DNA of 64,000 nucleotides, from NCBI GenBank assembly GCA_965112735.1, contig OZ218955.1, forward strand, positions 2,356,001-2,420,000. Direction: 5' to 3'. The number at the start of each line of letters is the position of its first letter. Position 1 is the stretch's first letter. Source of the DNA: Phaeosaccion multiseriatum. Its lineage: Eukaryota > Protista > Ochrophyta, other classes. The notes beneath the pieces are model-generated. The model worked only from the letters and a program-made list of their open reading frames with translations, was not told the origin of the DNA and made no database searches. The position numbers and the translations under genes are program-made. Shown piece after piece: positions 2,600-35,820 of the stretch.

Positions 2600-5500
2600 T
2601 ACCGCCCCAAGGGGGGGGGTCCCCTCTGGGGAGATGTACAGTATGTCAGTGAAGCAGGGAATTTAGATTTTTCAGAAGAGGAGAGACCTTGGCGTGCGCT
2701 GTCACTTACTGAGGCGGCGGAGACAGAGCCCAGGAAGAGTGGAGCACACTGTCAAGGAGGAGAGTAGATACTGGTGTGGTGGAAAGCGAGCCTCTTGTCC
2801 TGGGCCCGGACAGAGCGCTTGTGTCGGCCAAGGGGACCCGCCTGGTGTTGAGTGCCGGGGTCCTCGTGGGCGAGGGAAGGAGAGATAGGGAGACTGTGTC
2901 TGGTGTTGAGTGCCGACAGTGTCCACGGTGTTGAGTGCCGGAACTCTTCTTTTCTTTCCCACCCAGTAGGGGGGGGCAGTCCCGTGAGGGACTCCCACCT
3001 TGGGAGCGCAGAGCGCCTCCAAGGGGGCCGCCTCCATGGAGGGAGGCGGGCACCGGGTTTCGGATGTAGTGGAGCTTGGGGTGCCACCGCAGTGAGCACC
3101 CCAAGTCCCGCTTCACCCCCACCCATCCGAGTACCCACCGGTGCGCTGCGAGGGTGCAGCAGCACCTGCCCCAGCCTAGTCGGGAGCCCACTCTCCCGAT
3201 CGTAGTCGGCCGGTACACAAAACACAAAGATACACAAACATTCATACGCACACAGACATAATAATACACATACAGGGGCAACAGTAGACACAGACGCACA
3301 CCAGTACACACACACATACAAACACCCGCCGCGTGTACCGGTGTAGGGCTGCTGGTGCTGTTGCCAAGGGCTGCGCTCCCCGCTGCTGGGGGAGGAATGA
3401 TGGCGAGGGAGGAGCCGCTGGTGTCGCCACGGGCAGAGTCAGTGTCCTTTGAAGAGGTCCCTTCGCACGCCCCCTGCTGACCATCACACACCCCCCACTC
3501 GCTTGGGATGGTGTGCTGGGGGGGGGGCGAGCCACTGAGCGAAATACACTGCGCAGTCCTCTGGCACGGCGGGTGGAAGCAGCAAAGCGCGCCCAAACCA
3601 GCAAATTCGGATTCTTTTCGGAATCACAGATCCAAAAGTGTCCATATATCCAACCCCTGTAGAAAAGCCGAAAATGCCCTCACAGAAGCGCTCATGTTTT
3701 CCGCTCCAAGCTCTTCGAACATCAACTCGTAGAAGTTACCCTTCTGCACACGCCGTACCAAGACCACTCTGCTGCGATTCCAACCGTCCGCCGTGGACTT
3801 CCGCTGTACCAGCTGAGCAATACAGCGAATGCCAAACACCTCGGTGCTGCGGGCCCGAAAAATGAACCAGTCCAATATCTCAAGCGCGGCGGCACCAATC
3901 CCTCGACCACCGAGCACGATAGCAAGAGGGTAGTCCATCCATACTACCGGAAGTAAGTCGTGCAAGCAGAGCGAGCCACAAGCCCTGTTCTCTCCCATCC
4001 TCCATGTTCACACCGCTCACGAGCCCCAACGCCGAAAAAACCATCACCTTCTCTGCTGCATCACAGGCAGGCCCCGACTTCCACTCCATAGCTGTTGTGA
4101 ACGACCAAACATCATGCTTCCGCCGTCCATTACAGATAAGTAGCCAGATTGCTCAATGCCCCAATTTCCTTCAGCACCGGACGACGTACATCGCCGTACA
4201 CTCCGTAGACGGTCACCAAACGCTGCCGTACCTCCCGAAATGCGAGTACCGTACACTCCCAATGCCGCCTTCCAATTCTCAATTCCCCCTCGTATGCTGT
4301 GCCTCTCTTGTCGCCCATCGGTTCGCTGTTATGGCCACAGGTCCCATATCCGCTCCACACGCAAACTCGAGGCGCCAACCACGATCAAAGGGCTCTCCGG
4401 TTCCTTCCAACAGCCCGAATAGCTGCCTTCGCATCCATGCTGCCACCTTTGACGCTCGTACTATTTGCTTTGCGGTTGCTGTTTGTCCTGAGAGCTGAGC
4501 CTCCATCGGACCCCCCCCCTCCCCCTCCCATGCGTTCGAGATGGTGAGGGAGGTACAGCTGTAGTCCGTCTCCTTCCCTTCGCCGCTCCTCGGCCCGATA
4601 TGTCTCTCGGATGTAGCTGCCGGAGGTGAGCTGTGCGAGCTCCCGTATCGAAGGTCAGCTACGCCCCCACCCATCCAGAGAGACTGCAGGCAAGCTCAGT
4701 GGCGACCCCGTACGCCTCCTTCTGGCCATACTGCTGTTGTAGGTGGGAGACACTCCAACAACAAGGGAGGTACACTTAAACACGCAGACGTACACAAACA
4801 TTCACAGGCACACAGATATAGACAAAGGCACAATACAGGGACACCAGCACCCACAAACGCACACTAGCACACACAGACGCAGACCAGCACACACAGATAC
4901 AAACACACATCGTCTGTAGGGGCAGTGACCACGGCTGCTGTTGCCTAGGACTGCCCCGCCCGCCGTTGAGGGCCGGAATGGCGAGGGATGAGCCGCTGTT
5001 GTCACCGCGCGCAGAGCCAGCCTCCTTTGCGGAGGAGGCGCATATTCGCACGCCAAACACAGGAAATACGCACCCTACACACAGAAACACCGTCCGGACA
5101 TACACACACAAACATACAGACAAACACCTGGAAGAGCTAAGGGGCCTGCCGTCACCCGGGAGCCCCTTTCGTCTCGTAAAAAGACAAAAAATGCCGTGGA
5201 CCACACCCCCCAAACCTTGGGCCACGGGAGAGAGGAGAGGGCGGAGAGATGAGTAGGGCGTCGGCCTCAACACCGGACGCGGATCCTACGGCGATACCAG
5301 CAAGGAAGAAAGGGCGAAGAGGGCAAAAGGCGCCGGCACTCAACACCGGGGCGGCGGTCGGCACTCAACACCAGACACCGCTCCTAAGCCGTAGAGCCCC
5401 ACAACACCGGCAAAGGGAAAGAAAAGAAGAGTTCCGGCACTCAACACCGTGGACACTGTCGGCACTCAACACCAGACACAGTCTCCCTATCTCTCCTTCC

Positions 5501-5884
5501 CTCGCCCACGAGGACCCCGGCACTCAACACCAGGCGGGTCCCCTTGGCCGACACAAGCGCTCTGTCCGGGCCCAGGACAAGAGGCTCGCTTTCCACCACA
5601 CCAGTATCTACTCTCCTCCTTGACAGTGTGCTCCACTCTTCCTGGGCTCTGTCTCCGCCGCCTCAGTAAGTGACAGCACACGCCAAGGTCTCTCCTCTTC
5701 TGAAAAATCTAAATTCCCTGCTTCACTGACATACTGTACATCTCTCCAGAGGGGACCCCCCCCCTTGGGGCGGTACCAAGCACCTACGCTGACGCTTCGC
5801 CCTGCTGGCTCCCATGTCTCCCACCTCTTCCTCGTCTCTGTTCCGCGAGAAACAAAGTTCCGTTGCTGCGCTGCTGAACAGGCT
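2597..5884 (-). mobile_element. Non-autonomous element, family A' (DIRS/split-repeat-related); intact A' terminus at 5884 and a truncated inverted A' copy at 2597-2959
   Basis: 2597-2959 is the reverse complement of ~5413-5778. The terminus AGCCTGTTCAGCAGCGCAGCAACGGAAC (rc at 5884) is identical to 24811. No credible ORF. Carries the shared module at ~3600-4500. Confidence 0.75.
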
Positions 5885-7625
5885 ATTTGCTGGCCACACC
5901 ATGCCCGCGCAGGGCGATGCATGACTGCGACTGGCCCCACCGACACACCACATGGCCACAACGCCGCCGAGTTGGAAGTGGCATGGGCCCAAAACGCCCA
6001 ATCTGGCCCCTCACTGGACCCAAAGCCGGGGTTCAATTGTGGGGCCCAAACAGCCCAAACGAGGCATTTGCTGGCCCCACCATACCCGCGCAGGCCATTG
6101 GATGACTACGACTGGCCCAACCGACACACTACATTGCCACAACCTTGCCAAGTTGGAACTGGCATGGGCCCAAAACGCCCAATCTGGCCCCTCACTGGAC
6201 CCAAAGCCGGGGTTTGTGGGGCCCAAACAGCCCAAACGAGGCATTTGCTGGCCACACCATGCCCGCGCAGGCCGATGCGTGACTGCGACTGGCCCAACCG
6301 ACACACCACATGGCCACAACGTCGCCAAGTTGGAACTGGCATGGGCCCAAAACGCCCAATCTGGCCCCTCACTGGACCCAAAGCCGGGGTTTGTGGGGCC
6401 CAAACAGCCCAAACGAGGCATTTGCTGGCCACACCATACCCGCGCAGGCCGATGCATGACTGCGACTGGCCCAACCGACACACCACATGGCCACAACGCT
6501 GCCAAGTTGGAACTGGCATGGGCCCAAAACGCCCAATCTGGCCCCTCACTGGACCCAAAGCCGGGGTTTGTGGGGCCCAAACAGCCCAAACGAGGCATTT
6601 GCTGGCCACACCATGCCCGCGCAGGAGACTGGACGACTGCGACTGGCCTAACCGACACACTACATGGCCACAACGCCGCCAAGTTGGGACTGGCATGGGC
6701 CCAAAACGCCCAATCTGGCGTCTCGAGGGACCCAAAGCCAGGGTTTGTGGGGCCCAAACGAGGCATTTGCTGGCCACACCATGCCCGCGCAGGAGACTGG
6801 ACGACTGCGACTGGCCTAACCGACACACTACATGGCCACAACGTCGCCAAGTTGGAACTGGCATGGGCCCAAAACGCCCAATCTGGCCCCTCACTGGACC
6901 CAAAGCCGGGGTTTGTCGGGCCCAAACAGCCCAAACGAGGCATTTGCTGGCCACACCATGCCCGCGCAGGAGACTGGACGACTGCGACTGGCCTAATAGA
7001 CACACTACATGGCCACAACGCCGCCAAGTTGGGACTGGCATGGGCCCAAAACGCCCAATCTGGCCCCTCGAGGGACCCAAAGCCAGGGTTTGTGGGGCCC
7101 AAACAGCCAAAACGAGGCATTTGCTGGCCACACCATGCCCGCGCAGGAGACTGGACGACTGCGACTGGCCTAACCGACACACTACATGGCCACAACGCCG
7201 CCAAGTTGGGACTGGCATGGGCCCAAAACGCCCAATCTGGCCCCTCGAGGGACCCAAAGCCAGGGTTTGTGGGGCCCAAACAGCCCAAACGAGGCAATTG
7301 CTGGCCACACCATGCCCGCGCAGGAGACTGGACGACTGCGACTGGCCTAACCGACACACTACATGGCCACAACGTCGCCAAGTTGGAACTGGCATGGGCC
7401 CAAAACGCCCAATCTGGCCCCTCACTGGACCCAAAGCCGGGGTTTGTGGGGCCCAAACAGCCCAAACGAGGCATTTGCTGGCCACACCGTGCCCGCGCAG
7501 GAGACTGGACGACTGCGACTGGCCCAACCGACACACTACATGGCCACAACGTCGCCAAGTTGGAACTGGCATGGGCCTAAAACGCCCAATCTGGCCCCTC
7601 ACTGGACCCAAAGCCGCCGGGGTTT
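5885..7625. repeat. 177-bp satellite, block 2
   Basis: Same monomer; the variant order repeats that of ~1838-2599. Confidence 0.97.
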
Positions 7626-8016
7626 TGTAGCGGTATATAAGGAGTCATTGGCTCGCTATAAACCATTCAGCCGCTGGGCCTCCTTATATACCGCTACAAA
7701 AATATGCACAGAAGAGGAACGATTCTAATCGCTAACACCCTTCAATCTTTGCGAGCAGTTGATCAGACCGCCCCCCCCGCCATCTTGGCGTTCTGGGGAT
7801 ATTCCGCAGGATCTTGTTCCCACTCGCGCCGGGTTTCTGAAACGGCCGTAAAATATTTGACTGCCCTATACGGGTGAGAATCGAACCTCTTACTGATGGA
7901 GATCTTTTCTTCTGTGCATATTTTTGTAGCGGTATATAAGGAGTCATTGGCTCGCTATAAACCATTCAGCGCTGAATGGTTTATAGCGAGCCAATGACTC
8001 ATTATATACCGCTACA
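7626..8016. mobile_element. Hairpin-terminated mini-element, family H1 (391 bp)
   Basis: Ends TGTAGC...GCTACA with TSD GTTT (7622-7625 / 8017-8020). Left hairpin 7626-7698; right 92-bp palindrome 7925-8016. Confidence 0.88.
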
Positions 8017-8463
8017 GTTTGTGGGGCCCAAACAGCCCAAACGAGGCATTTGCTGGCCACACCATGCCCGCGCAGGCCGATGCATGACTGCGACTGGCCC
8101 CACCGACACACCACATGGCCACAACGCCGCCGAGTTGGAAGTGGCATGGGCCCACAACGCCCAATCTGGCCCCTCACTGGACCCAAAGCCGGGGTTTAAT
8201 TGTGGGGCCCAAACAGCCCAAACGAGGCATTTGCTGGCCCCACCATACCCGCGCAGGCCATTGGATGACTACGACTGGCCCAAACGAGGCATTTGCTGGC
8301 CACACCATGCCCGCGCAGGAGACTGGACGACTGCGACTGGCCTAACCGACACACTACATGGCCACAACGTCGCCAAGTTGGAACTGGCATGGGCCCAAAA
8401 CGCCCAATCTGGCCCCTCACTGGACCCAAAGCCGGGGTTTGTGGGGCCCAAACAGCCCAAACG
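8017..8463. repeat. 177-bp satellite, block 3
   Basis: Same monomer, with one internally deleted unit near 8280. Confidence 0.95.
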
Positions 8464-11400
8464 CGCTGCTTCAGCAGCGAAGCCACGGAAGTTCTGTTCT
8501 CGCGGAGTGGAGTCGACGGAGAAACAGGGTATTGAGAGCCGAGGAGGGTGGAGCGTGAGCGCGTGTGTGGACCCCGAGGGGGGCTGGTAGGATAGAATAT
8601 ATTTATGGCAGCAGATGGAAAACAACGGATTTGGATTTTCCGCTGGAGCTCAGAAGAGGAGGAGCCCTGCTGTACTCGCCACCCTACCGTGATTGAAGGA
8701 GATAGAGAGCAGGTGCGGGAGCGTGTACGAGCAGGGAGGAGAGTAGAGACCGATGGTGTAGGAAAGCAAGGATCGCAGTAGGGCCCGACTGCTTCTCTTG
8801 TGAGGGTGAAGGTGCTGTGTGCTTACTTGTGTCATGCTAACTGTCGCAAACACAAGAGGTGCCCCCAATGCTAACTGTCGCAAGGGCTTGCGCTACGCAC
8901 ACGCATCTAGTAGAAGTGAGAGACCCTTAGCCTGGTGTAGTATGGAGCTCTCGCCGGGCAAAAGGTTTTTTCTTTCTTCTCTCGCCGGTGACGGGGCTTC
9001 CACGTTAGCTCGTCGCCCTTTCCTCTCCATTAGTTTCGCGGGGTCCGTCCACCCCAGCCTCTCCGTCTCCTCCCTTCCCCAGCCCGCCTGGTTGTGGCGT
9101 CGCTGCGGCGGTGGCGGATCTTTTAGGTTGGGGGGTGAAAGATCCTCCCGCCTTGGCTGGTCCTGATGGTGATGAGAGCCCCGCGTATCGTGTTGGACGG
9201 AGATGCCGCAGCTGAGAGCCCCACGTATCGACGATCGTATCCGACGGAGATGCAACAGGGCAGGTGGACTCAGGGGGGGCTTTCAGGGGGGGAGGTATTG
9301 TGTGGGCAGCAGCAGCGCGCAGTGGTGTCGCTGCAGCCGGAGGGCACGGGCGCACGGACAGTTGGTGTGTAGTATGGGAGTGAGTGCTATGGCTGCGAAA
9401 GGATCGCTGGGAGGTGGCCTTGTTTTCCTCTTCCTCGCCTTTGGAGACGTTTTGCGTGTGGGAGAAGGGCGGCAGCAGAAGTGAGTGAAAAGGGGCTCTC
9501 AGCCAAGCAGCAAGAGCCTCGGGAGCCACGGCGAAGGAGTTCGTGAGTGTGGCAGCGGCGGCCGCATGGATACGGGGCAGGTGTTCGGGCTATGACAAGG
9601 AACCGGTGAGCTCTGCTTTGATGGTGGTTGACGCCTCGAGGTGGCGTGTGAAGCGGCTGTTCCACCTGTGGCCACAACAGAGAAGCCCCGTACAACAGGA
9701 GGGGCGCAGCGAGCAAGGAAGGCATGGGTCGTTGGCAGACAGCATTGCGAGTACACAGCGGTTTCATCTCGGACGACACAGCAACATCTAGGGTATTCAT
9801 CTACGTGTTAAGTGTGGGGAAAGGGCACTACGCTGGGGGGTTGCGGCAGAGAGTGGGGAATCGACCCATGTCGCGACTTATCTGCAATGGGTGGCGGCGG
9901 AGTGGCGTTTGGTCGTACACAACAGCTGTGGAGTAAGTGTCGGGGCCCGCCTGTGCCGCAGATGGTCAGATGAGGGGTTTTCGGGTGTGTGGGGCCCTTG
10001 AGCGGTGCGAACAAAGAAAATGGGCGAGAGAAGGCACTAGGTTTTGCTATGCTTGCGCGACTTACTTGGGGTAGTAGGGATGGCATATCCTCGTGCCAGA
10101 ATGCCCGGCGGTCGATTCTTTGGGGCAGCAGGGCTTGAGATCTTGGGCTTGTTCGTTTTGCGGGACGACAGCAGCGAGGTGTTTTGCCCTCGGTGTTTTG
10201 TCGACCGGGTCAAGCGGAAGTCCGCAGCGGACGGTTGGGATAGCAGTGGAGGGGTCTCGGCACGGTGTATGCAGAAGGGCCGCGTCCACGAGTCGATGTT
10301 CTAGGAGCTTGGGGCGGAAAACATAAGTGCTCCTGTTGGGGCATTTTCGGTTTTTCTACCGGGGTTGGTTCTATGGGTCTTTTGGATCTGTGATTCCGAA
10401 ATGAATTTCAATTTCGACCAAGTGGCTAATTGAGCGACCTTTGATCTGCGGCGATGGCGAATCTTTTAGATTGGGGGGTGAAAGATCCCTCCGTCTTGGT
10501 CCGTCATTGGAGCAGGTGATGAAGAGAGCGCCGACTATCGTATTCGGAGGACTTCGCAGGGGCTCCCGGTGATGGAGGAGGGAGTAGAGCTGTGCCGCGT
10601 CTCCCTCACTCTCACTGATGGCTCTGCAGGTGGGAGCACAGCAGATTGGTAGCGACATAGCACGCATCTCCTCCCACTCACGGCGGATCGATGAGGCTTC
10701 AGCATCGGTCGCAAGCGGCGGTGACTGGCGGCTCCTCCGGTCTCAGGTGGGCCTGGGTCACGGCATTTCAGTATACGCGTGCAGGAGGCTATGCATGATG
10801 GGCTGGGCAGGGCGCGGTAGGATACATGCAGACGCGGCTGCGCCCTGGGGACTTTGGGTGAATGGGGGATGAGCGGCTCCTCGGAACCGCTGCCCCCAAA
10901 GGCCCGTGCTCGCCCCCGTCAGGGAAGCGACACCCCGGAGGCACTGTGTGCCCCGAGGTGAGTCCCTCTCAGGACTGCACTCTTAATGAAAAGTTTATCC
11001 CCCAACAATGGCGACGACTGGATGAGGAGGAGCGAGGCCTCTCAATGGGTACCCAGTTTTGATTGAGCGCAACGACCGCGAGAACGCTGCTTCAGCAGCG
11101 AAGCCACGGAAGTTCTGTTCTCGCGGAGTGGAGTCGACGGATAAACAGGGTATTGAGAGCCGAGGAGGGTGGAGCGTGAGCGCGTGTGTGGACCCCGAGG
11201 GGGGCTGGTAGGATAGAATATATTTATGGCAGCAGATGGAAAACAACGGATTTGGATTTTCCGCTGGAGCTCAGAAGAGGAGGAGCCCTGCTGTACTCGC
11301 CACCCTACCGTGATTGAAGGAGATAGAGAGCAGGTGCGGGAGCGTGTACAAGCAGGGAGGAGAGTAGAGACCGATGGTGTAGGAAAGCAAGGATCGCAGT

Positions 11401-13391
11401 AGGGCCCGACTGCTTCTCTTGTGAGGGTGAAGGTGCTGTGTGCTTACTTGTGTCATGCTAACTGTCGCAAACACAAGAGGTGCCCCCAATGCTAACTGTC
11501 GCAAGGGCTTGCGCTACGCACACGCATCTAGTAGAAGTGAGAGACCCTTAGCCTGGTGTAGTATGGAGCTCTCGCCGGGCAAAAGGTTTTTTCTTTCTCC
11601 ACCCACCCACCCATCTAGATTAGTTTAGTACATAGTAGTTAGATACTCAGTAGTTAAGGGGGGGATGAGCGGCTCCTCGGAACCGCTGCCCCCAAAGGCC
11701 CGTGCTCGCCCCCGTCAGGGAAGCGACACCCCGGAGGCACTGTGTGCCCCGAGGTGAGTCCCTCTCAGGACTGCACTCTTAATGAAAAGTTTATCCCCCA
11801 ACAATGGCGACGACTGGATGAGGAGGAGCGAGGCCTCTCAATGGGTACCCAGTTTTGATTGAGCGCAACGACCGCGAGAACGCTGCTTCAGCAGCGAAGC
11901 CACGGAAGTTCTGTTCTCGCGGAGTGGAGTCGACGGATAAACAGGGTATTGAGAGCCGAGGAGGGTGGAGCGTGAGCGCGTGTGTGGACCCCGAGGGGGG
12001 CTGGTAGGATAGAATATATTTATGGCAGCAGATGGAAAACAACGGATTTGGATTTTCCGCTGGAGCTCAGAAGAGGAGGAGCCCTGCTGTACTCGCCACC
12101 CTACCGTGATTGAAGGAGATAGAGAGCAGGTGCGGGAGCGTGTACAAGCAGGGAGGAGAGTAGAGACCGATGGTGTAGGAAAGCAAGGATCGCAGTAGGG
12201 CCCGACTGCTTCTCTTGTGAGGGTGAAGGTGCTGTGTGCTTACTTGTGTCATGCTAACTGTCGCAAACACAAGAGGTGCCCCCAATGCTAACTGTCGCAA
12301 GGGCTTGCGCTACGCACACGCATCTAGTAGAAGTGAGAGACCCTTAGCCTGGTGTAGTATGGAGCTCTCGCCGGGCAAAAGGTTTTTTCTTTCTCCACCC
12401 ACCCACCCATCTAGATTAGTTTAGTACATAGTAGTTAGATACTCAGTAGTTAAGGGGGGATGAGCGGCTCCTCGGAACCGCTGCCCCCAAAGGCCCGTGC
12501 TCGCCCCCGTCAGGGAAGCGACACCCCGGAGGCACTGTGTGCCCCGAGGTGAGTCCCTCTCAGGACTGCACTCTTAATGAAAAGTTTATCCCCCAACAAT
12601 GGCGACGACTGGATGAGGAGGAGCGAGGCCTCTCAATGGGTACCCAGTTTTGATTGAGCGCAACGACCGCGAGAACGCTGCTTCAGCAGCGAAGCCACGG
12701 AAGTTCTGTTCTCGCGGAGTGGAGTCGACGGATAAACAGGGTATTGAGAGCCGAGGAGGGTGGAGCGTGAGCGCGTGTGTGGACCCCGAGGGGGGCTGGT
12801 AGGATAGAATATATTTATGGCAGCAGATGGAAAACAACGGATTTGGATTTTCCGCTGGAGCTCAGAAGAGGAGGAGCCCTGCTGTACTCGCCACCCTACC
12901 GTGATTGAAGGAGATAGAGAGCAGGTGCGGGAGCGTGTACAAGCAGGGAGGAGAGTAGAGACCGATGGTGTAGGAAAGCAAGGATCGCAGTAGGGCCCGA
13001 CTGCTTCTCTTGTGAGGGTGAAGGTGCTGTGTGCTTACTTGTGTCATGCTAACTGTCGCAAACACAAGAGGTGCCCCCAATGCTAACTGTCGCAAGGGCT
13101 TGCGCTACGCACACGCATCTAGTAGAAGTGAGAGACCCTTAGCCTGGTGTAGTATGGAGCTCTCGCCGGGCAAAAGGTTTTTTCTTTCTCCACCCACCCA
13201 CCCATCTAGATTAGTTTAGTACATAGTAGTTAGATACTCAGTAGTTAAGGGGGGGATGAGCGGCTCCTCGGAACCGCTGCCCCCAAAGGCCCGTGCTCGC
13301 CCCCGTCAGGGAAGCGACACCCCGGAGGCACTGTGTGCCCCGAGGTGAGTCCCTCTCAGGACTGCACTCTTAATGAAAAGTTTATCCCCCA
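8464..13391 (+). mobile_element. Split-direct-repeat element (family A/B) with tandemly amplified right end: A1-internal-B1-(A-C-B)x3, last B truncated
   Basis: A (514 bp) at 8464, 11085, 11881 and 12676. B (~221 bp) at 10864, 11658, 12454 and 13249 (partial). C is a 59-bp spacer. The period is 795-796 bp and there is no coding capacity. Confidence 0.85.
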
Positions 13392-13564: not shown

Positions 13565-16500
13565 TGTAGCCAATCCCGCTATCGCTAGCAAGTCGGAAAG
13601 TGAGCCAATATTTGAAGAGATGGGTACAAGGTTGTAAAGTTTGGAGGCCTTGCCTCAGCTCTAGTAAAGAGCCGAGTCTCCTTTAGCTTTAGGGTGGATA
13701 AGCTAAGAGTGAGGGAGCGCCACAGACTACTACTCCCGGTGGGCTGTGTGCCACCTCATTGTGCCACGTAAGATGTCATATGGGCATGGTGACAGTTACA
13801 CGTACTAAGGCAATGAATATGAGGCTGTAGGGGCAACACTTCCCCCTCGAGAGAGAAGCTCGACTAACGAGAGCGTGACTAAACTAAATGCTAAAAGAGA
13901 AGATGAGAGAGAGAGAGAACATGTTCATATGAATAAAAGTAACCAAAAAGGGTTCCCGAAGGGTTTCCTTATCGGCGGCCTGCTCGCGGGCGTCGGCGTG
14001 ACGAGGGGCCGCGAGACCGAAGGAAGCGCTTAGCATCCTCCGCCAAAGAGCGACGAGGGAAAGAGGAGAGGAATTGCTCTAAAAGAGCAGGAACGTCATC
14101 ATTCATGACTGTCAAAGGTTCCCAAGTATCGTCGGTGGCATTGAAGCCCTTCCAGGAGGTGTGAACCTGCCAGGGAGCGCCTTGAGAGGGACGTTGTAGG
14201 TCCTTGAAGGCGGAGACGACCCAGGAGGCTGAGTCGTGTGAGATCTGCTTAAGTAGCTCAGTACTGACATTGAGATACTGGTCAGCGTAGTAGCGCAAGC
14301 GGCAAGCGTGCACTTCAGAGGTTTGCTTCGAGACAAGGTGTTGCACTTTGTAGACCAGAGTGTCAATCTCCTCCAGCACTTTATAAGGGCCTTGCCACAC
14401 TCCAGAGAGCTTGGAGTAGCGGCTGTTGGAAGCGACAAGGACATAAATGCCCGGCATGTAGAGGCCTTCGTAGTTGAGGGCAGCCGAGAGGGCCAGCTCC
14501 TTGCGGTGTTGATGTCCAAGACGAGTAGTGTCCAGACGACGATTGTGACGGTCGCGAGCCGTCGCCCGCGAGCGCTCAAGTTGAGCAGCAACCCGTTCGT
14601 GTCTCTCTTCAAGAACCGCTTGCAGCTGAGCACCATAGTGGTTGAGCTGTTCAAGAGTTGGCGGCGAAGATTGGAAGTCAACATCGAAGCTGTCGCCTTG
14701 TTGCAGGACGATATCAAGTGGAGTTGTCGCACGTAGGCCAGTGTGCAGAAAGAGTGGAGTCTCTTTGCGGGTCGAGCTGATCGTGGTGTTGATGGCAGCT
14801 TGGACCAGAGGTGTGATCAGATTGTAGTCGTCCGCGTCAATGCGAAACTCAGAGAGGAGAGAGCGGTAGACTGAAACGACAGTGCGTACAGCTCGTTCAG
14901 CGAGACCATTACTCCAAGCAGAGTATGGAGCCGAGAAGCGATGTTTAGCGCGAAGCTCAGTCGCTAGGCGCTTCATCACATGGTTGAGGAAGTGACTGCC
15001 TCGATCACTCTGCCACTTGCTCACTACTCCAAATGTGCTGAACCAGCGCATCAATCCACCGACAGCTGCGTCTGCAGTGGTGGAAGCGCATTCGTTGAGC
15101 ATTGTGTAACCACTGAAGGCATCTTGGATGACCAACAGGTATGGCAAGGAGGTGCAGCCCAAGTCATGCATGTGGACGAAGTCGAAATGAATCATCTGAT
15201 TGGGCTTGGTAGGGTGGACCGCACCGCGAAGAGGGCGAGGTATGCGATGCCCATGGGAGTTGGTGAGGCAATGGAGGCAGAGGTCAACAAAGCGAGTCAG
15301 GTCGGCACCAATGGTGTGCCAGTGGAATCGTTCCGAGAGAACGGAGAGAGTGGTGTCGGCAGCGCGATGCCCTGCCGATCCTTGATGTGCAATGACAGAG
15401 AGTCGGACTTGTAGGTCAATGTCGTCATTGGGTATCCACAGAGGACGTGAAGACGGCGATTGAGGTACCACAATGGCGTCGAAGTTAGCATCATGCTCCA
15501 AAGAAGCAAGGTGCTGCTGAGCTGCAAGCGCTTCGAGAGTGAGCGTGCCTTGGGCAGCCGCTTGAGAAGAGCGAATCTCCGCGAGAGAGGGCCACTCAAA
15601 GTCACTGTCCATGGAGTCGTGCACTGATCCTGGAGAGAAGGTGCGTTTGGAGGGCACTCACGCGTACAGTGTGGTCTTCCGGAGGATCAAGAGGCTTTGT
15701 AGCAGAGCCTGGGACTGAGCGGAAGCGAGAGGTCATGTCACCCCACACGTTCAGCTCGCCACTAAGGTGGGCGATTTCATAATCAAAGCCCGAGAGGAAC
15801 ACAGACCAGCGTTGCAATCGCTCGCGTGCTGGCTTGTGTACGTCACTGATGATGCTACTGGGCCTGAAGCAGTATTGCAAATTGCGGTGATCAGTGTAGA
15901 TGAAGAGGTGCACACCAGACATCAGCCAAGGCAGGCGTTCAAAGGACTGGAGGATAGCAAAGGCTTCCTTGTCAATGGTGGCGTAGTTGAGCTGAGCTCC
16001 GGCAAAGCTACCGCTGAGGAAGGCAAGAGGCTCATGGCGCTGTTCGGCGATGGGCTTGCTGAGGTCCTCAATGGGGCACTTGCGTCACCACATTCCCCCA
16101 ATGGAGATCACTGGCATCAGGAAAGACACAGCGAGCCTTGTCAGGGTCAGGATGAGCAAGCTTGACTTGATCTGCCAGAGCGTCTTTCAGAGCTTGAAAG
16201 GCTTTGGAGTGCTCAGGGCCCCACCCCACCGAAGAGAGGGAGACGGAGCGAGCGACACGCTTGGTGCGAGGAGTAGGAGCGGCAGTGGCGTCAGGGTGAC
16301 GTCTCTGCTTGCGGTTGCCAGCTGCGGAGAAGACGGTTTGGTTGAGCTCTTGCAGAGGAGCGACGAGCTCTGCAAAGCGTGGGATGCAGTCTCGCATCCA
16401 GCCAGCAGCGGCGACGAATTGAATCAACTCAGCACCGTTCTTGGGCTCCTCGAGGTCGAGGAGACCTTGGATCTTGACCGGGTCATGTTTGACGCCGTCG

Positions 16501-19500
16501 CCATCATAGATCTTCCCGCAGAACTTTTGCGAGTTGCCGATGGATACACCCGAGAGCCCGAGCTTGAAACCGGCCTTGGCGAGTGCATCGAGCACAGACT
16601 GAAGAATGGAGCGGAACTCTTCCTCCGTGTGGGCCCAGATGGTGATGTTGTCGATCCAGGTAACAAGGTTGGTGCCGAAATGTTCAGAGAGGCACTTAGC
16701 TAGAGTGCTCTGTGCAAACTCACTGGCATTGAGGATGCCTTGAGTCACACGCGTGGGAGTAAACTTCCCGTCAGGAGTGCAGTAGGTGAGGATCTCTTGG
16801 CTGGAGAGATCGAGGGGCAGCTGCCAGAACATGTTGGCAAGGTCAAGCTCACAGAAGAAGCGTGCTCCGCGCATCTTGGCACTGATCTCAGAGAGATTGG
16901 GCATGGGAAAGCGGGAGCGAAGAGTGCGAAGGTTGACCTCTTGGTAGTCAGCTACCTGCCTGAACTGTCCAGGTTTGCCGGGCTTCTGGATACAGAAAGC
17001 GCGGCTGGCCCAGACGGCCTGAGGGTTTGGATAGTGATATCCGAACTTGGAGAGCTCGTCCGTGAAGGCTCGAAGAAAGTCACGACGGGCACCGGATTGG
17101 TAGATGGGCAATTGGCAGATGGGCTCCGCTCCGTCCTTGAGGCGAATGACCATGGGGTCGACCTTGGCAGGAGGGTCATGCAAGAGCGCTTTGCCTCGCC
17201 ATACTTCCGGGTGTGAGGTAAGGACCTCGTAGAGAGCTGCGGTGTCGGAGAAGCCTATTGCTGATTGAGCAATGGGGAGCAGAGCTTCTTTGATTTGAGT
17301 TTCCGGTAAGACGGGAGAATCAGACACCTCAGGGAGAGGATCATCGTAGCGGGCCAGTGGTTCATTATTAGAGGTGCCAACTTCACTGCGAGCAGTAAAG
17401 GTGGCGGAAGCTACGTGGAAGACTTCGTCAGAGGTGTACTGCGAAGCATACACATCATCAGAAGAGCAGTCCCAGAGATCTATAGAAAAGTTAGCGTTGT
17501 CGCCTATATACTGCTCAGGCAAGGAAGCAAGAGAAGCACCCGCTTGTAACAACGAACTCACGCGCACCGTTGCAGAAGACGCATCAGTGGGAGTGGAGTT
17601 GCGCAGTTCAAAGGGCACTTCCGAACCAGCCACAGCTGCTTGCTTCTCCGCCTGCTGTCGAAGCTGCTCTCGGGGCAGCGCGAGACCCAGCTGTTGGGCC
17701 AGCCCTTTCCCTAGGTAGAAGAGAGGGGCCTCATCCTCGCGCGGCTCAAAGAGCAATGCAGTGAGAGGTGGAAGTGCGACAGAAGAGAGAGGACCCGCGT
17801 CCGTATGAATGTGAAAGTGAAAGTTGCTGAGCTCATGCGTGATGACTTGTGAGGTGCTGCATCCAAAAGGCTGCAGCTGCACCGGCTTAGGAAGAGCGCG
17901 AATGGAGACATCCATTCCGTCTGCTACCATCTCGTCCGCCACAGGCCTGGGAAGGAGGCAAAAGGTCTCCGCACCGGTGTCGACTAAGCACTCGAGAGAG
18001 CGCTTCTTCAGTTGTCCTGTTTGATGCGCAAGAGCATGCAAAGAAGCAGGAGAGGAAGAAAAGAGAGAGATTGTTCCATCAGTGGGAGAGTGCGAGAGTA
18101 AGTCATTAGCAGTGGTCAGAATACTGACCTCATAGTTCTTGGGAGGGTTCCAAGGCAGGTTGCGGTCGCTCATAACCTTCATGCGCTCCGCTTTGTTCTT
18201 GAGCTGCGGGCAAGTATAGACCGTGTGATCAGAGTTGCCACACTTGAAGCAAGCCCGAGCCTTGGACTCACGTCCTTGCTTCTTCGGCTTCTTCAGAGGG
18301 GGGGCAGTTGCCCGAGAGTCCGCAGAGGCGGGAGCGTCGCGCTTCGGCTGCTGCTGCTGCTGCTGCGGCTGCTGCTGCTGCTGCTGCTGTCGCCTACCGC
18401 CGCCAGCTGGCTTCTTGCCCCCACCAGTGATGACCAATCGCTGTATCTCCTCAAGAGAGGGCAGAGCGACAGCCCCATTAGAAGTGTCTTGCTGGATGCA
18501 CCGGTAGATGGGCAAGTACTGATCCACCATGAGGGTCAGTTGCTGGAGAAAGGGCACATAGGTCTTCAGAAGATTCTTGTGAAGAGTGAAGTACCTAGTG
18601 AGGTACCCCTTCAGCCCCTGAGGGCGATTGCACGCTTGAAGCAGAGCATTGCACAGAACTTGGCAAGACTCCGTGCTGACCTGAGTGTTGTCCTCCTTGA
18701 AGAAGACTCGAGTCTGGCCATGCTTCTCCAAGAGACCGTGCATCTGCTGATTGAGAGAGCCCACGGGATTCTGAGTATCCGGTGGCAGATAGAGCTTGCT
18801 CTTGAGGTCCTTCAGTAGGGCATTGCCATGGTCCGAACAGGAGCCGGCCTCAGGCTCTACCAGCTGCTGAAGGTGCTTGTAAAGAAACTCGTGAGTAATA
18901 GCTGAGGTAGCTTTACCAAGCTGAGCGCCTAGTGACGTAAGGTAGTGCGTAGGCAAGAGCACCTCAAGAGTCGTAAGGTCAGGCTTTGAACCTACAATCG
19001 CGTTGTAGCGCCGAAGGTAAGTCTCATACTGCTTGAAGAAAGCAATAAGAGCCTTCTCCGTAACCTCCCCAGATGGGAAGTTGGGAGCAGTAAGAGAGAA
19101 GATGGCCACTGAGCTGGCTGTCGCGGGCATACGCTGAGACTCCTCCTCGCTGTCCGAGCCACTGCTGCTACTGCTGCTGCCATTCTCCTCGTCGGTGCCG
19201 GAAGCTGCTGCCTCGTCGTTCGCCTCGGATGCTGCATCTGCTGCCCCCGCGACATCATCTGAGTCAGCCACGTCCTGCACCGCCTCAGCCTCCTTAGCCT
19301 TGCCCTTCCCCTTGTTCTTGTTGTTCGCCATGCTGATGCTGAATTCCGCAAAGCTGAGGATCAGAGGTGGTCCGGCTGTCGAGCTGTTCGACTCTAGATC
19401 AGAAATGCTGAGGCTGAGAGGTCTCCCGAATGCAGAGACCGAGAGCTGAGAGTTTCCTGAGTTTTGGCAATTCTCAAATAAAGCTTTATTGTAGCCAATC

Positions 19501-19763
19501 CCGCTATCGCTAGCAAGTCGGAAAGTGAGCCAATATTTGAAGAGATGGGTACAAGGTTGTAAAGTTTGGAGGCCTTGCCTCAGCTCTAGTAAAGAGCCGA
19601 GTCTCCTTTAGCTTTAGGGTGGATAAGCTAAGAGTGAGGGAGCGCCACAGACTACTACTCCCGGTGGGCTGTGTGCCACCTCATTGTGCCACGTAAGATG
19701 TCATATGGGCATGGTGACAGTTACACGTACTAAGGCAATGAATATGAGGCTGTAGGGGCAACA
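13565..19763 (-). mobile_element. Full-length Ty3/Gypsy LTR retrotransposon with chromodomain integrase
   Basis: 274-bp TG..CA LTRs at 13565-13838 and 19490-19763, identical by eye. TSD ACCC. PPT GAGGGGGAAG lies next to the 3' LTR. Domain order is gag-PR-RT-RH-IN. Confidence 0.97.
13969..19331 (-). pseudogene. Gag-Pol polyprotein (CCHC knuckle, protease, RT, RNase H, integrase, chromodomain), disrupted
   Basis: Motifs CFKCGNSDHTVYTC, LVDTGA, RT ELDLANMFWQL...WIDNI (DD to DN), RH FPDASD...YTDHRNL, IN HHCC + SDRGSHF...NGLAER, chromo WKGFNATDDTWEP. Frameshifts at ~16073 and ~15620-15650. Confidence 0.92.
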
Positions 19764-22788: not shown

Positions 22789-22902
22789 CCGACACACCAC
22801 ATGGCCACAACGTCGCCAAGTTGGAACTGGCATGGGCCCAAAACGCCCAATCTGGCCCCTCACTGGACCCAAAGCCGGGGTTTGTCGGGCCCAAACAGCC
22901 CA
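22789..22902. repeat. 177-bp satellite fragment
   Basis: Partial monomer in phase with both neighbouring blocks. Confidence 0.9.
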
Positions 22903-25147: not shown

Positions 25148-25548
25148 TGTTAGAAGTCGTACTTTTGCTAGACTGATACCTGCCCTCTGAATTCAGACCG
25201 GGAGGTATCAGTCTAGCAAAAGTACGACTTCTAACAAGACCGTTGCTAGAAGACGAACCCCCCCCCCCCACCGCACATAGTGGAGAGAAGTAACTCGCAG
25301 TCTGAGAATCAGCATCATGGGCCAGCAAGCTGGTAACAGTTTTCGCCGAAAAATACGCTTTTTCACAAGCGACAGCTAAGGTTCGAACTCACAACTAGCC
25401 TTGTTAGAAGTCGTACTTTTGCTAGACTGATACCTGCCCTCTGAATTCAGACCGGGAGGTGTTAGAAGTCGTACTTTTGCTAGACTGATACCTGCCCTCT
25501 GAATTCAGACCGGGAGGTATCAGTCTAGCAAAAGTACGACTTCTAACA
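25148..25548. mobile_element. Hairpin-terminated mini-element, family H2 (401 bp): H-core-half H-H
   Basis: 89-bp palindromes TGTTAGAAG...CTTCTAACA at 25148-25236 and 25460-25548, a half copy at 25402-25459, a 165-bp core, and TSD TGGC. Confidence 0.9.
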
Positions 25549-31871: not shown

Positions 31872-34800
31872 CGCTGCTTCAGCAGCGAAGCCACGGAAGT
31901 TCTGTTCTCGCGGAGTGGAGTCGACGGAGAAACAGGGTATTGAGAGCCGAGGAGGGTGGAGCGTGAGCGCGTGTGTGGACCCCGAGGGAGCTGGTAGGAT
32001 AGAATATATTTATGGCAGCAGATGGAATACAACGGATTTGGATTTTCTGCTGGAGCTCAGAAGAGGAGGAGCTCTGCTGTACTCGCCACCCTACCGTGAT
32101 TGAAGGAGATAGAGGGCAGGTGCGGGAGCGTGTACAAGCAGAGAGGAGAGTAGAGACTGATGGTGTAGGAAAGCAAGGATCGCAGTAGGGCCCGACTGCT
32201 TCTCTTGTGAGGGTGAAGATGCTGTGTGCTTACTTGTGTCATGCTAACGGTTGCAAACACAAGAGGTGCCCCCAATGCTAACGGTTGCAAGGGCTTGCGC
32301 TACGCACACGCATCTAGTAGAAGTTTGAGAGCCTGGGCTTGATTATGTGTGTGAAGATGGTCCGCACGTCTAGCCCAAGGTTTTTTCTTCTCTCGCCGGT
32401 GACGGGGCTTCCACGTTAGCTCGTCGCCCTTTCCTCCCCATTAGTTTCGCGGGGTCCGTCCACCCTTATCTTTCCGTCTCCTCCCTTCTCCACCCCGCCG
32501 GGTTGTGGCGTCGCTGCGGCGGTGGCGGGATCTTTTAGTGGGGGGTGAAAGATCCTTCCGCCTTGGTCCTGATGAAGATGAGAGCCCCACGTATCGTATT
32601 GGACGGAGATGCAGCAGTGCAGGTGGACTCAAGGGGGGCTTTCAGGGGGGGAGGTATTGTGTGGGCAGCAGCAGCGCGCAGTGGGGTCGCTGCAGCCGGA
32701 GGGCACGGGCGCACGGACAGTTGGTGGGTAGTATGGGAGTGAGTGCCATGATGGGGAAAGGATAGCTGGGAGGTGGCATTGTTTTCCTCCTCCTCGCCCC
32801 TGGAGATGTTTTACGTGTGGGAGAAGGGCAGCCGCAGAACTGAATGAAAAGGGGCTCTCTGCCAAGCAGCAAGAGCCTCGGGAGCCACGGCGAAGGAGTT
32901 CGTGAGTGTGGCAGCGGCGGCTGCATGGATACGGGGCAGGTGTTCGGGCTATTACAAGGAACCGGTGAGCTCTGCATTGATGGTGGTTGGCGCCTCGAGG
33001 TGGCGTGTGAAGCGGCTGTTCTACCTGTGGCCGTAACAGAGAAGCCCCGAAACAACAGGAGGGGCGCAGCGAGCAAGGAAGGCATATGGGTCGTTGGCAG
33101 ACGGCATTGAGAGTACACAGCGCTTTCATCTCGCACGACACAGCAGCATCTAGGGTGTTCATCTACGTGTTAAGTGTGGGGAAAGGGCACTACGCTGGGG
33201 GGTTGCGGCAGAGAGTGGGGCATCGGGCCATGTCGCTACTTATCTGCAATGGGCGGCGGCGGAGTGGCGTTTGGTCGTCCACAACAGCTGTGGAGTGAGT
33301 GTGGGGGCCAGCCTGTGCTGCAGATGGTCGGATGAGGGATTTTTCGGGGTGTGTGGCACTTGAGCGGTGCGAACGAAGAAAATGGGCGAGAAAAGGCACT
33401 AGGTCTTGCTATGCTCGCGCGACTTACTTGGGGTAGTAAGGATGGCATGTCCTCGTGCCAGAGTGCCCGGCGGTCGATGCTTTGGGGCAGCAGGGCTTGA
33501 GATCTTGGGCTTGTTCGTTTTGCGGGACGACAGCAGCGAGGTGTTTTGCACTCGGTGTTTTCTCGACCGGGTACAGCGGAAGTCCGCAGCGGACGGTTGG
33601 GATAGCAGTGGAGGGGTCTCGGCACGGTGTATGCCGAAGGGCCGCGTCTACGAGTTGATTTTCTAGGAGCTTGGTGCGGAAAACATAAGTGCTCCTGTTG
33701 GGGCATTTTCGGTTATTCTACCGGGGTTGGTTCTATGGGTCTTTTGGATCTGTGATTCCGAAAAGATTTTCATTTGGCCCATTGAGCTGGACCTGCGGCG
33801 ATGGCGAATCTTTTAGATTGGGGGGTGAAAGAATTTCCGTCTTGGTCCGTCATTGGAGCAGGTGATGAAGAGAGCGCCGACTATCGTATTCGGAGGACTC
33901 CGCGGGGGCTGCCGGTGATGGAGGAGGGAGTAGAGTTGTGCCGCGTCTCCCTCACTTTCACTGATGGATCTGAAGGTGGGAGCACAGCAGATTGGTAGCG
34001 ACACAGCACGCATCTCGTCCCACTCCCGGCGGAACGATGAGGCTACAGCATCGGTCGCAAGGGGCGGTGGCTGGCGGCTCAGTCTTAGGTTGGCTTCGGC
34101 CACGGCATTTCAGTACACGTGCAGGAGGCTCTAGGCGGGGCAGGGCGGAGGCTACATGTGCAGACACGGCTGCGCCCTGGGGACTTTGGGTGAATGGGGG
34201 ATGAGCGGCTCCTCGGAACCGCTGCCCCCAAAGGCCCGTGCTCGCCCCCGTCAGGGAAGCGACACCCCGGAGACACTGTGTGCCCCGAGGTGAGTCCTTC
34301 TTAGGACTGCACTCTTAATGAAAAGTTTATCCCCCAACATTGGCGACGACTGGATGAGGAGGAGCGAGGCCTCTCAATGGGTACCCAGTTTTGATTGAGC
34401 GCAACGACCGCGAGAACGCTGCTTCAGCAGCGAAGCCACGGAAGTTCTGTTCTCGCGGAGTGGAGTCGACGGATAAACAGGGTATTGAGAGCCGAGGGGG
34501 GTGGAGCGTGAGCGCGTGTGTGGACCCCGAGGGAGCTGGTAGGATAGAATATATTTATGGCAGCAGATGGAAAACAACGGATTTGGATTTTCTGCTGGAG
34601 CTCAGAAGAGGAGGAGCTCTGCTGTACTCGCCACCCTACCGTGATTGAAGGAGATAGAGGGCAGGTGCGGGAGCGTGTACAAGCAGAGAGGAGAGTAGAG
34701 ACTGATGGTGTAGGAAAGCAAGGATCGCAGTAGGGCCCGACTGCTTCTCTTGTGAGGGTGAAGATGCTGTGTGCTTACTTGTGTCATGCTAACGTGTTAG

Positions 34801-35820
34801 AAGTCGTGCTTTTGCTAGACTGGTACCTACCCTCTGAATTCAGACCGGGAGGTACCAGTCTAGCAAAAGCACGACTTCTAACAAGCCCTAATGCTAGAAG
34901 TCGAACCCCCCCCCCCCCACCGCACATAGTGGAGAGAAGTAACTCGCAGTCTGGGAATCAGACTAATGGGTGCCAGCCGGTACCAGTTTTCGCCGAAAAA
35001 CACACTTTTTTCACAAGCTACAGCCAGGATTCGAACTCGCAATGGCCTTGTTAGAAGTCGTGCTTTTGCTAGACTGGTACCTACCCTCTGAATTCAGACC
35101 GGGAGGTACCAGTCTAGCAAAAGCACGACTTCTAACAAGGCCATTGCGAGTTCGAATCCTGGCTGTAGCTTGTGAAAAAAGTGTGTTTTTCGGCGAAAAC
35201 TGGTACCGGCTGGCACCCATTAGTCTGATTCCCAGACTGCGAGTTACTTCTCTCCACTATGTGCGGTGGGGGGGGGGGGGTTCGACTTCTAGCATTAGGG
35301 CTTGTTAGAAGTCGTGCTTTTGCTAGACTGGTACCTCCCGGTCTGAATTCAGAGGGTAGGTACCAGTCTAGCAAAAGCACGACTTCTAACAAACGGTTGC
35401 AAACACAAGAGGTGCCCCCAATGCTAACGGTTGCAAGGGCTTGCGCTACGCACACGCATCTAGTAGAAGTTTGAGAGCCTGGGCTTGATTATGTGTGTGA
35501 AGATGGTCCGCACGTCTAGCCCAAGGTTTTTTCTTTTCCACCCACCCACCCATCTAGATTAGTTTTAGTACTTAGTAGTTAGATACTCAGTAGTTAAGGG
35601 GGGGATGAGCGGCTCCTCGGAACCGCTACCCCCAAAGGCCCGTGCTCGCCCCCGTCAGGGAAGCGACACCCCGGAGACACTGTGTGCCCCGAGGTGAGTC
35701 CCTTTCAGGACTGCACTCTTAATGAAAAGTTTATCCCCCAACATTGGCGACGACTGGATGAGGAGGAGCGAGGCCTCTCAATGGGTACCCAGTTTCGATT
35801 GAGCGCAACGACTGCGAGAA
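31872..35820 (+). mobile_element. Complete non-autonomous split-direct-repeat element A1-internal-B1-A2-C-B2 (TOC1/PAT/Ngaro-like architecture)
   Basis: A1 31872-~32388, B1 34196-34416, A2 34417-~35537 (interrupted), C, B2 35598-35820. No TSD; ~20 bp of satellite is missing at the site. Confidence 0.87.
34795..35391. mobile_element. Family H2 mini-element as a palindromic dimer (597 bp): H-core-H-rc core-rc H
   Basis: Hairpins at 34795-34883, 35049-35137 and 35303-35391. The cores 34884-35048 and 35138-35302 are reverse complements. TSD AACG. Confidence 0.92.

What the first reader, a model, noticed from the sequence alone, without database searches (positions are those of the whole stretch)
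7626..8016. Family H1: a mini-element whose terminal repeats are themselves hairpins
Seen: TGT..ACA ends and a 4-bp TSD. The right repeat is a 92-bp palindrome with one mismatch. The left repeat has the same outer arms but a different centre. The core ends are also inverted (AAAATATGCACAGAAGA / TCTTCTGTGCATATTTT). It is unrelated in sequence to family H2 but has the same design: ~400 bp, ~90-bp hairpins, a C-tract early in the core and a TCGAAC motif late. It fits neither a normal MITE (single TIR pair) nor a TRIM (no PBS/PPT seen). Two independent families suggest a class.
Basis: partly seen in the sequence, partly recalled or inferred. Interest (0 to 1): 0.72.

Follow-up and report, generated by a model that had tools for sequence, protein, structure and literature searches.

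The report
Mini-retroelement with hairpin end repeats
This 391-base insertion in an algal-type genome is a real, non-coding jumping element whose end repeats are DNA hairpins; it is likely a miniature LTR retrotransposon that borrows Gypsy enzymes and, lacking the usual priming sites, would prime its own copying by folding back, a layout not found in the papers searched.

Summary
Confirmed: H1 (7626-8016) has TGT..ACA ends, a GTTT target duplication against 44 empty satellite units, a 92-bp palindromic right repeat, a 73-bp left hairpin and a 17-bp inner inverted repeat. Nested MITEs are refuted: 0 of 7 hairpins have their own TSD, while 3 of 3 whole elements do. One correction: H1 and H2 are not independent. 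Their hairpins are unrelated, but their cores share four collinear motifs, including a Pol III B-box-like motif. So this is one lineage that kept its core and swapped its hairpin sequence. Public contigs show other insertions, roughly 2-4 H1 copies and tens of H2 copies. H2's asymmetric loops are in direct orientation, as in LTRs. A neighbouring Gypsy element has the same end and TSD signature. No PBS or PPT lies next to the repeats. H2a carries a loop-plus-arm duplication, and H2b is a TSD-flanked inverted dimer; both fit fold-back or template-jump events during reverse transcription, though in-place rearrangement is not excluded. Best reading (0.5): a TRIM-like element with palindromic LTRs, mobilised by Gypsy. 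Main rival (0.25): a Ginger-type cut-and-paste MITE. No autonomous partner or RNA was found.

The parts
7622..7625 (.). Left target-site duplication GTTT
   Evidence: empty satellite sites carry one copy
7626..7698 (.). Left terminal repeat (inferred 3' LTR): 19-bp hairpin arms; most of the inner arm replaced by 8 nt, likely damage to a 92-bp palindrome
   Evidence: damage inferred contigs
7699..7715 (+). D: 17-bp inner inverted repeat next to the left hairpin
   Evidence: I3
7771..7783 (-). C-tract plus CCGCCAT (G-tract on the minus strand), shared with H2 cores
7845..7855 (-). GCCGnAAAAYA motif (T-run on the minus strand), shared with H2; 4 of 5 window hits lie in H1/H2
7878..7887 (-). B-box-like motif GGTTCGATTC (Pol III internal promoter type; consensus recalled)
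   Evidence: 7 of 8 window hits lie in H1/H2 (not independent of each other)
7908..7924 (+). D': 17-bp inner inverted repeat next to the right hairpin
   Evidence: I3
7925..8016 (.). Right terminal repeat (inferred 5' LTR): 92-bp palindrome, one mismatch at 8001
8017..8020 (.). Right target-site duplication GTTT
5880..8463 (.). Host 177-bp satellite array interrupted by H1
25148..25548 (.). H2a: sister element with 89-bp hairpin repeats, loops in direct orientation, TSD TGGC, and an extra 58-nt arm+loop unit at 25402-25459
34795..35391 (.). H2b: perfect inverted dimer (hairpin-core-hairpin-core'-hairpin'), TSD AACG, empty sites elsewhere in the window
13565..19763 (-). Gypsy-type LTR retrotransposon: identical 274-bp LTRs TGTTG..CTACA, TSD ACCC, RT/RNase H/integrase. 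Same integration signature as H1; not shown to be the partner

Best explanation
H1 is a non-coding, TSD-flanked element with hairpin end repeats, and it is likely a miniature non-autonomous LTR retrotransposon (TRIM-like) whose LTRs are palindromes, likely copied and integrated by a Gypsy-type RT and integrase in trans, with fold-back of its own ends predicted to replace the missing tRNA primer site and polypurine tract. Shown: TGTNR ends, 4-bp TSDs, direct loop orientation in H2, arms identical within each H2 element but different between elements, a conserved core, and no adjacent PBS or PPT. Inferred: the sense strand is the window's minus strand (5' repeat, B-box, T-run, G-tract, 3' repeat). 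Transcription would start near the hairpin centre, so R is the loop and U3 is the reverse complement of U5. U5 and U3 (plus D/D' in H1) would pair into a panhandle that brings the RNA ends together and allows intramolecular priming and strand transfer. Occasional snap-back of the finished minus-strand cDNA would give H2b-type inverted dimers, and an end-to-end template jump would give the H2a R-U5 duplication.
For: Integration signature equals that of the Gypsy element 5.5 kb away (TGTNR ends, 4-bp TSD ACCC). In Ectocarpus, 19 of 22 curated Gypsy rows list a 4-bp TSD (the other 3 undetermined) and Copia rows list 5 (PMC12477816 supplement). The host is probably an ochrophyte: the best named U2A' hit is Vaucheria. 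Each repeat carries an att-like TGT/ACA at both of its ends, as LTRs do. Asymmetric H2 loops are direct in H2a (3 of 3) and in the first two of H2b's three. From tables 3 and 8, the listed contigs that span loop plus core (X1 records 1 and 2, X2 9, 11 and 15, X5 29) also read as unflipped; this is my reading of partial tables. Long contigs hold an H2 hairpin with no core beside it, like solo LTRs (X2 record 10, X5 records 25, 26 and 28; their TSDs not visible). The core is conserved while the hairpin sequence is replaced, which fits RNA-level cis signals. The H2a extra unit has one breakpoint exactly at the LTR terminus and in sense orientation reads U3-R-U5-R-U5. The H2b dimer shares the inferred 5' repeat, where a minus-strand cDNA 3' end would lie (a 1-in-2 coincidence). 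An independent H1 end joined to the Gypsy LTR sequence is seen in the second sample.
Against: No PBS (no TGG after either repeat). No PPT: 4-7 purines in the last 15 nt, against 10 for the Gypsy. No Tf1-like complement inside the repeat (best duplex -4.8 to -10.4 kcal/mol) (all). A T5 run (H2) or T4 run (H1) lies about 35 nt after the B-box on the sense strand and would be expected to stop Pol III before a full-length RNA. No convincing A-box was seen by eye. Standard reverse transcription does not by itself make U3 and U5 arms identical, yet 5 of 5 H2a arms and 6 of 6 H2b arms are. Derivatives lacking the inner half of one hairpin occur in both families at about 1-3 times single-copy depth (joint 7734-7971; joint 25363-25504); if they moved as units, that favours DNA-level transposition. 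The window Gypsy shares no extended sequence with H1 or H2. H1's own repeats cannot show orientation: the right one is symmetric and the left is altered. H2a and H2b could be in-place replication slips.
Confidence: 0.5

Rival explanations
1. A Ginger-type (Gypsy-integrase-like) cut-and-paste non-autonomous DNA transposon whose long TIRs (hairpin plus D, about 109 bp) happen to be palindromic, so either half of the hairpin can serve as a transposase end.
For: Ginger elements have TGTNR ends, 4-bp TSDs and 40-270-bp TIRs (PMC2836005 passages). H1 is formally one long inverted repeat. Half-hairpin derivatives keep both outer ends and may be multi-copy. A 'possible Ginger' non-autonomous element is listed in Ectocarpus, but with a 5-bp TSD and a 9-bp TIR.
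Against: H2 loops are direct, not inverted. Conserved core motifs with a B-box are not needed for cut-and-paste. Arms co-vary within elements while the cores are only 84.5% identical. TSDs GTTT, TGGC and AACG do not match the Ginger1 CCGG/CCGT preference. No such transposase was among the 7 window ORFs scanned.
Confidence: 0.25
2. A hairpin-ended DNA replicon, copied by rolling-hairpin or concatemer resolution (parvovirus ITR plus D-sequence layout, recalled) and integrated by a DDE integrase, perhaps as a satellite of a Polinton-like element or virus.
For: Palindrome plus inner inverted D in H1. H2b equals a duplex turn-around dimer with exactly inverted outer ends and one TSD. All arms are homogenised within an element. 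H2 hairpins have unpaired bases near the tip.
Against: No flip/flop loop isomers in the 2 window elements or in the listed loop-spanning contigs. The B-box and G-tract are unexplained. The end motifs gave only chance hits in viral contigs: 0 of 79 loci had a paired end, and the H2 20-mer had 0 hits.
Confidence: 0.12
3. Nested or composite insertion of ordinary ~90-bp palindromic MITEs around passive cargo DNA.
For: Hairpins without a core exist in contigs.
Against: 0 of 7 H-type hairpins have matching 4-bp flanks, while 3 of 3 whole elements do. The cargo is homologous between families with unrelated hairpins. Both hairpins of an element carry the same variants.
Confidence: 0.04

Closest known systems
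TRIMs, especially TRIMp3 (Helenus with tRNA-derived LTRs, Cassandra, Ajax; PMC10886601, PMC7215508)
   Same: Under 1 kb, non-coding, two terminal repeats with TG..CA ends, 4-bp TSD (as animal Helenus and PbTRIM, PMC3532108), a Pol III-type motif; Cassandra RNA is also predicted to pair its two LTRs.
   Different: The repeats are near-perfect palindromes. No PBS or PPT at the internal termini. The B-box-like motif is in the internal region, not in the LTR. No tRNA or Rfam match. An inverted, not tandem, dimer is seen.
Ginger1/Ginger2 non-autonomous DNA transposons (PMC2836005); GingerRoot (PMC6839031)
   Same: TGTNR ends, 4-bp TSD, 40-270-bp inverted ends.
   Different: Each end is itself a palindrome with att-like motifs on both sides; loops are direct; 'palindrom' and 'hairpin' occur 0 times in either paper; GingerRoot has a 6-bp TSD.
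Ochrophyte Gypsy elements (Ectocarpus library, PMC12477816; window element 13565-19763)
   Same: 4-bp TSD and TGT..ACA ends; the window Gypsy also lacks a TGG-type PBS.
   Different: They are coding, have ordinary non-palindromic LTRs and (in the window element) a PPT; no shared sequence with H1.
Parvovirus/AAV inverted terminal repeats and turn-around dimers (recalled, no call)
   Same: Hairpin plus inner D sequence; inverted dimer sharing one central hairpin.
   Different: TSD-flanked TGT..ACA integration; no flip/flop isomers seen; no Rep partner known.
Penelope inverted pseudo-LTR stubs (earlier scan notes)
   Same: Palindromic, TSD-flanked small inserts.
   Different: Those have 14-17-bp TSDs and hammerhead motifs and are single fold-backs; here there is a fixed 4-bp TSD, fixed TGT..ACA ends, two hairpins around a core and no Rfam hit.

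Membership tests
TRIM (definition in PMC10886601) | Under 1000 bp, no coding capacity | tested here: met
   391 bp; longest stop-free frame 77 codons
TRIM (definition in PMC10886601) | Two LTRs in direct orientation with TG..CA ends | tested here: inconclusive
   Met in sister family H2 (loops direct); in H1 the right repeat is symmetric and the left altered, so orientation cannot be read
TRIM (definition in PMC10886601) | 4-6-bp TSD | tested here: met
   GTTT, TGGC, AACG, each with empty sites
TRIM (definition in PMC10886601) | PBS directly after the 5' LTR | tested here: not met
   No TGG start on either strand in H1, H2a or H2b; no strong complement inside the repeat; host tRNA set not available
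TRIM (definition in PMC10886601) | PPT directly before the 3' LTR | tested here: not met
   4-7 purines of 15; a G-tract lies about 22 nt (H2) or 72 nt (H1) away
TRIM (definition in PMC10886601) | Autonomous LTR partner with similar ends | not testable with these tools
   No whole genome held; the one complete Gypsy in the window shares only the end motif and TSD length
TRIMp3 / Helenus | tRNA-derived sequence inside the LTR | tested here: not met
   The B-box-like motif is in the core; ARAGORN 0 genes and Rfam 0 hits in the window
Ginger non-autonomous element | TGTNR termini and 4-bp TSD | tested here: met
   TGTAG (H1), TGTTA (H2)
Ginger non-autonomous element | Ends are inverted repeats of 40-270 bp | tested here: inconclusive
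   Formally true because palindromes are both direct and inverted; H2 loop asymmetry says direct
Ginger non-autonomous element | Ginger1 CCGG/CCGT target preference | tested here: not met
   0 of 3 TSDs; Ginger2 has no such rule
Ginger non-autonomous element | Transposase-only partner with the same ends | not testable with these tools
   No genome; contigs cannot be fetched
Rolling-hairpin replicon | Flip/flop isomers of asymmetric hairpins | tested here: inconclusive
   None seen in 2 window elements or in the listed loop-spanning contigs; tables are cut and contigs drop variants
Ordinary nested MITEs | Each hairpin has its own TSD | tested here: not met
   0 of 7

The most novel reading that the evidence does not exclude
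A lineage of integrase-dependent mini-elements that has replaced both host-tRNA priming and PPT priming with palindromic LTRs. The RNA runs from hairpin centre to hairpin centre, primes itself (in H1 possibly with its own D' end or a short B-box-driven Pol III RNA annealed to D), and rebuilds all terminal arms from one template each cycle. Hairpin sequence is free to be swapped while a conserved core is kept, and inverted dimers are integrated as by-products. This would be a retroelement replication route between LTR reverse transcription and hairpin-primed DNA replication.
Probability: 0.3. Interest if true: 0.85.

Novelty: new variant of a known kind. Interest (0 to 1): 0.62.

Why it matters
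PBS and PPT are part of the published definition of TRIMs. A mobile family with LTR-like geometry and neither site would show another way to prime reverse transcription, and at 390 bp it is small enough to test in vitro. Such elements read as MITEs to TIR finders and fail PBS/PPT filters in LTR finders, so they may be systematically misfiled in algal and other genomes. The conserved core with swappable hairpins gives a search handle. If the Ginger reading holds instead, the family would still be an odd structural intermediate between LTR and TIR ends for Gypsy-like integrases.

Tried and rejected
Pattern scans found no relatives elsewhere. The H1 end motif gave 4 metagenome and 75 viral loci, and 0 of 79 had a paired end within 600 nt, so they are read as chance. 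The H2 20-mer gave 0 hits in viral and prokaryote contigs. No RNA holder was listed; this is not evidence either way. The altered left centre (7672-7679) has no cover in X1, X2 or X5; a hole proves nothing. Rfam and ARAGORN found nothing in the window. Tf1-type self-priming complementarity was not found, and the Tf1 paper was not held. One loose-end sequence at the hairpin centre had no match in the window; the other loose ends were not followed. The Gypsy integrase search gave 3 distant, mostly unnamed hits. Earlier-finding look-ups by place, by H1 or H2a sequence and by words found nothing on this design; one search returned only Penelope stubs, which were rejected. An assembly artefact is rejected for H1: TSD, empty sites, and matching contigs in two samples. 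Literature: six searches for this design returned 0 papers or one unrelated cruciform review (listing only). The library lacks most subscription journals, and Repbase and Dfam could not be searched, so absence from print is not established.

Full report
1. Observation. The window is eukaryotic: it holds a 177-bp satellite, LTR elements and genes such as Nup205 and U2A'. The best named U2A' homologue is from Vaucheria, the second of 120 listed hits, so the host is probably an ochrophyte alga (inference). H1 spans 7626-8016, begins TGTAG, ends CTACA and is flanked by GTTT on both sides. Forty-four satellite units in the window show the empty site. Writing A for the outer 19 nt and B for the next 27 nt, the right repeat is A-B-B'-A' (92 bp, one mismatch) and the left is A-B-8 nt-A' (73 bp). 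A 17-bp inverted pair D/D' lines the inside of the repeats. Fold z-scores are -19.7 and -7.2. The end 15-mer occurs 4 times against 0.31 expected. H1 is single in the window and non-coding.

2. It moves as one unit. A scan for TGTNR..YNACA hairpins found 9; the 7 that belong to H1 and H2 have no matching 4-bp flanks. A scan for terminal inverted ends with a 4-bp TSD returned 4 rows: H1, H2a, H2b and one probable chance pair. H2a (TSD TGGC) and H2b (TSD AACG) also have empty sites in the window, and an empty-site joint for H2a is seen in contigs.

3. It is a family. Five of 7 listed runs hold H1 words; they come from two samples with the same organism label. Laid contigs show core variants, a related subfamily with a different hairpin and core, truncated and half-hairpin forms, and in the second sample an H1 end joined to sequence identical to the window's Gypsy LTR, which is an independent insertion. 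Depth is not a copy number. As a rough guide, long flank-spanning contigs in X2 lie at 35-46; the H1 core lies at 105 and the D'-A-B contig at 343; two H2 core contigs lie at 570 and 999. That suggests about 2-4 H1 elements, mostly with two full hairpins, and tens of H2 elements. The left centre of this copy is then likely damage. It resembles the adjacent flank in 9 of 10 nt, and that flank carries a 3-nt duplication not seen in the 44 empty units listed.

4. H1 and H2 are related. Their hairpins share only the terminal motif. Their cores align in one orientation only (p 0.002-0.07 in 6 tests against 0.37-0.96 in 6 reverse tests). They share a C-tract, CCGC(A)CAT, GCCGnAAAAYA and TCGAAC, with spacings of 68-74 and 36-39 nt between the last three. 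Four of 5 window hits of GCCGnAAAAYA and 7 of 8 hits of a B-box-type pattern (consensus recalled) lie in these elements; the hits are not independent of each other. On the minus strand the order is hairpin, B-box, T-run, G-tract, hairpin. So the lineage kept its core and replaced the hairpin sequence while keeping the hairpin shape.

5. Clues to mechanism. (a) The ends and TSD length match the complete Gypsy element at 13565-19763 (identical 274-bp LTRs, TSD ACCC). They also match Ectocarpus Gypsy families: 19 of 22 rows list 4 bp, 3 are undetermined. Ginger elements share this signature too. (b) H2's 21-nt loop is asymmetric and is direct in H2a and in the first two repeats of H2b. The listed loop-spanning contigs also read as unflipped (my reading of cut tables). 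This favours LTRs over TIRs and over flip/flop hairpins. (c) All 5 arms of H2a are identical and all 6 arms of H2b are identical, but the two sets differ at 2 of 34 paired positions, while the cores are 84.5% identical. The arms are therefore homogenised, or held by pairing. (d) There is no PBS, no adjacent PPT and no Tf1-like complement. (e) H2a has an extra 58-nt unit that in minus-strand sense reads U3-R-U5-R-U5, with one breakpoint exactly at the terminus. H2b is a perfect inverted dimer inside one TSD and shares the inferred 5' repeat. Both are what template jumping and snap-back of a cDNA end would give. Both could also arise in place by replication template switching between the 34-bp arms. 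(f) Against the retro model: a T4-T5 run follows the B-box by about 35 nt, no clear A-box was seen, and half-hairpin derivatives may be multi-copy.

6. Verdict on mechanism. Most likely (0.5) this is a TRIM-like non-autonomous LTR element with palindromic LTRs, mobilised by Gypsy proteins and primed by fold-back. The rivals are a Ginger-type MITE (0.25), a hairpin DNA replicon (0.12) and nested MITEs (0.04); the rest is unassigned. Integration by a Gypsy-type integrase is common to the first three readings and is the best supported step. The RNA intermediate and the priming route are inferred.

7. Comparison with what is known. It works like a TRIM but fails two defining features (PBS, PPT), so I do not file it as one. 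TRIMp3 elements carry the Pol III sequence in the LTR and keep PBS and PPT. Papers seen: PMC10886601, parts 1-2 of 6 plus a term search; PMC3532108, PMC7215508, PMC13570524, PMC2836005 and PMC6839031, passages only; PMC12477816, passages, section 5 part 1, a term search of 5 supplementary files, and parts 1 and 3 of 3 of the curation table. The supplement search had one 'palindrom' hit, an EnSpm-like element with a 2-bp TSD, and no element of this design. The uncurated 'LTR/Unknown' and 'DNA/Unknown' families, the other papers' supplements, Repbase and Dfam were not seen and could hold one. Searches for this design gave 0 relevant papers. The AAV, Tf1 and Pol III promoter comparisons are recalled.

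8. Scores. Novelty: new variant of a known kind. Interest 0.62. The bold reading, a primer-independent hairpin-LTR replication route, has probability about 0.3 and would merit 0.85. Limits: one organism label, three elements in the window, no assembly, no partner, no RNA.

Noticed in passing
window 13565-19763 (-): Complete-looking Gypsy element with identical 274-bp LTRs and TSD ACCC. A 12-bp palindrome, not a TGG-type PBS, follows its 5' LTR, so its priming is also unexplained. Pol is split over separate frames.
   Followed up: partly
window 34795-35391: H2b is a perfect 597-bp palindrome (288-bp arms, 21-nt loop) inside one 4-bp TSD.
   Followed up: yes
window 25402-25459: H2a has a 58-nt arm+loop duplication with one breakpoint exactly at the repeat terminus.
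   Followed up: yes
window 21455-22790 (-): Fragment resembling a Gypsy integrase C-terminus with chromo- and Tudor-like stretches (by eye); Pfam gave only a weak SAWADEE hit, E 0.087. Ectocarpus Gypsy-10 is reported with a Tudor domain.
   Followed up: partly
window 1-39500: 177-bp satellite arrays interleaved with several repeat families, some joining the satellite at similar positions; one has ~795-bp tandem units at 10858-13391 and one spans 2600-5880 with 361-bp inverted ends.
   Followed up: no
window 47490-47522: 33-bp TGTTG..CAACA hairpin without a TSD; relation to H elements unknown.
   Followed up: no
window 54290-54632: 69-bp direct repeats flanking a (GGAG)n tract of about 52 units.
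   Followed up: no
contigs laid on window 7626-8016: Several contigs run from the H1 hairpin centre into long unrelated sequence (one of 731 bp at about 3 times single-copy depth in X1). These could be breakage at the hairpin tip, or larger elements that start with the half-hairpin.
   Followed up: partly
window 7634-7670: The A-B half of the H1 repeat has TATA-like, ATTGG and initiator-like motifs spaced so that transcription would start just before the hairpin centre (motifs recalled, read by eye; absent from H2).
   Followed up: no
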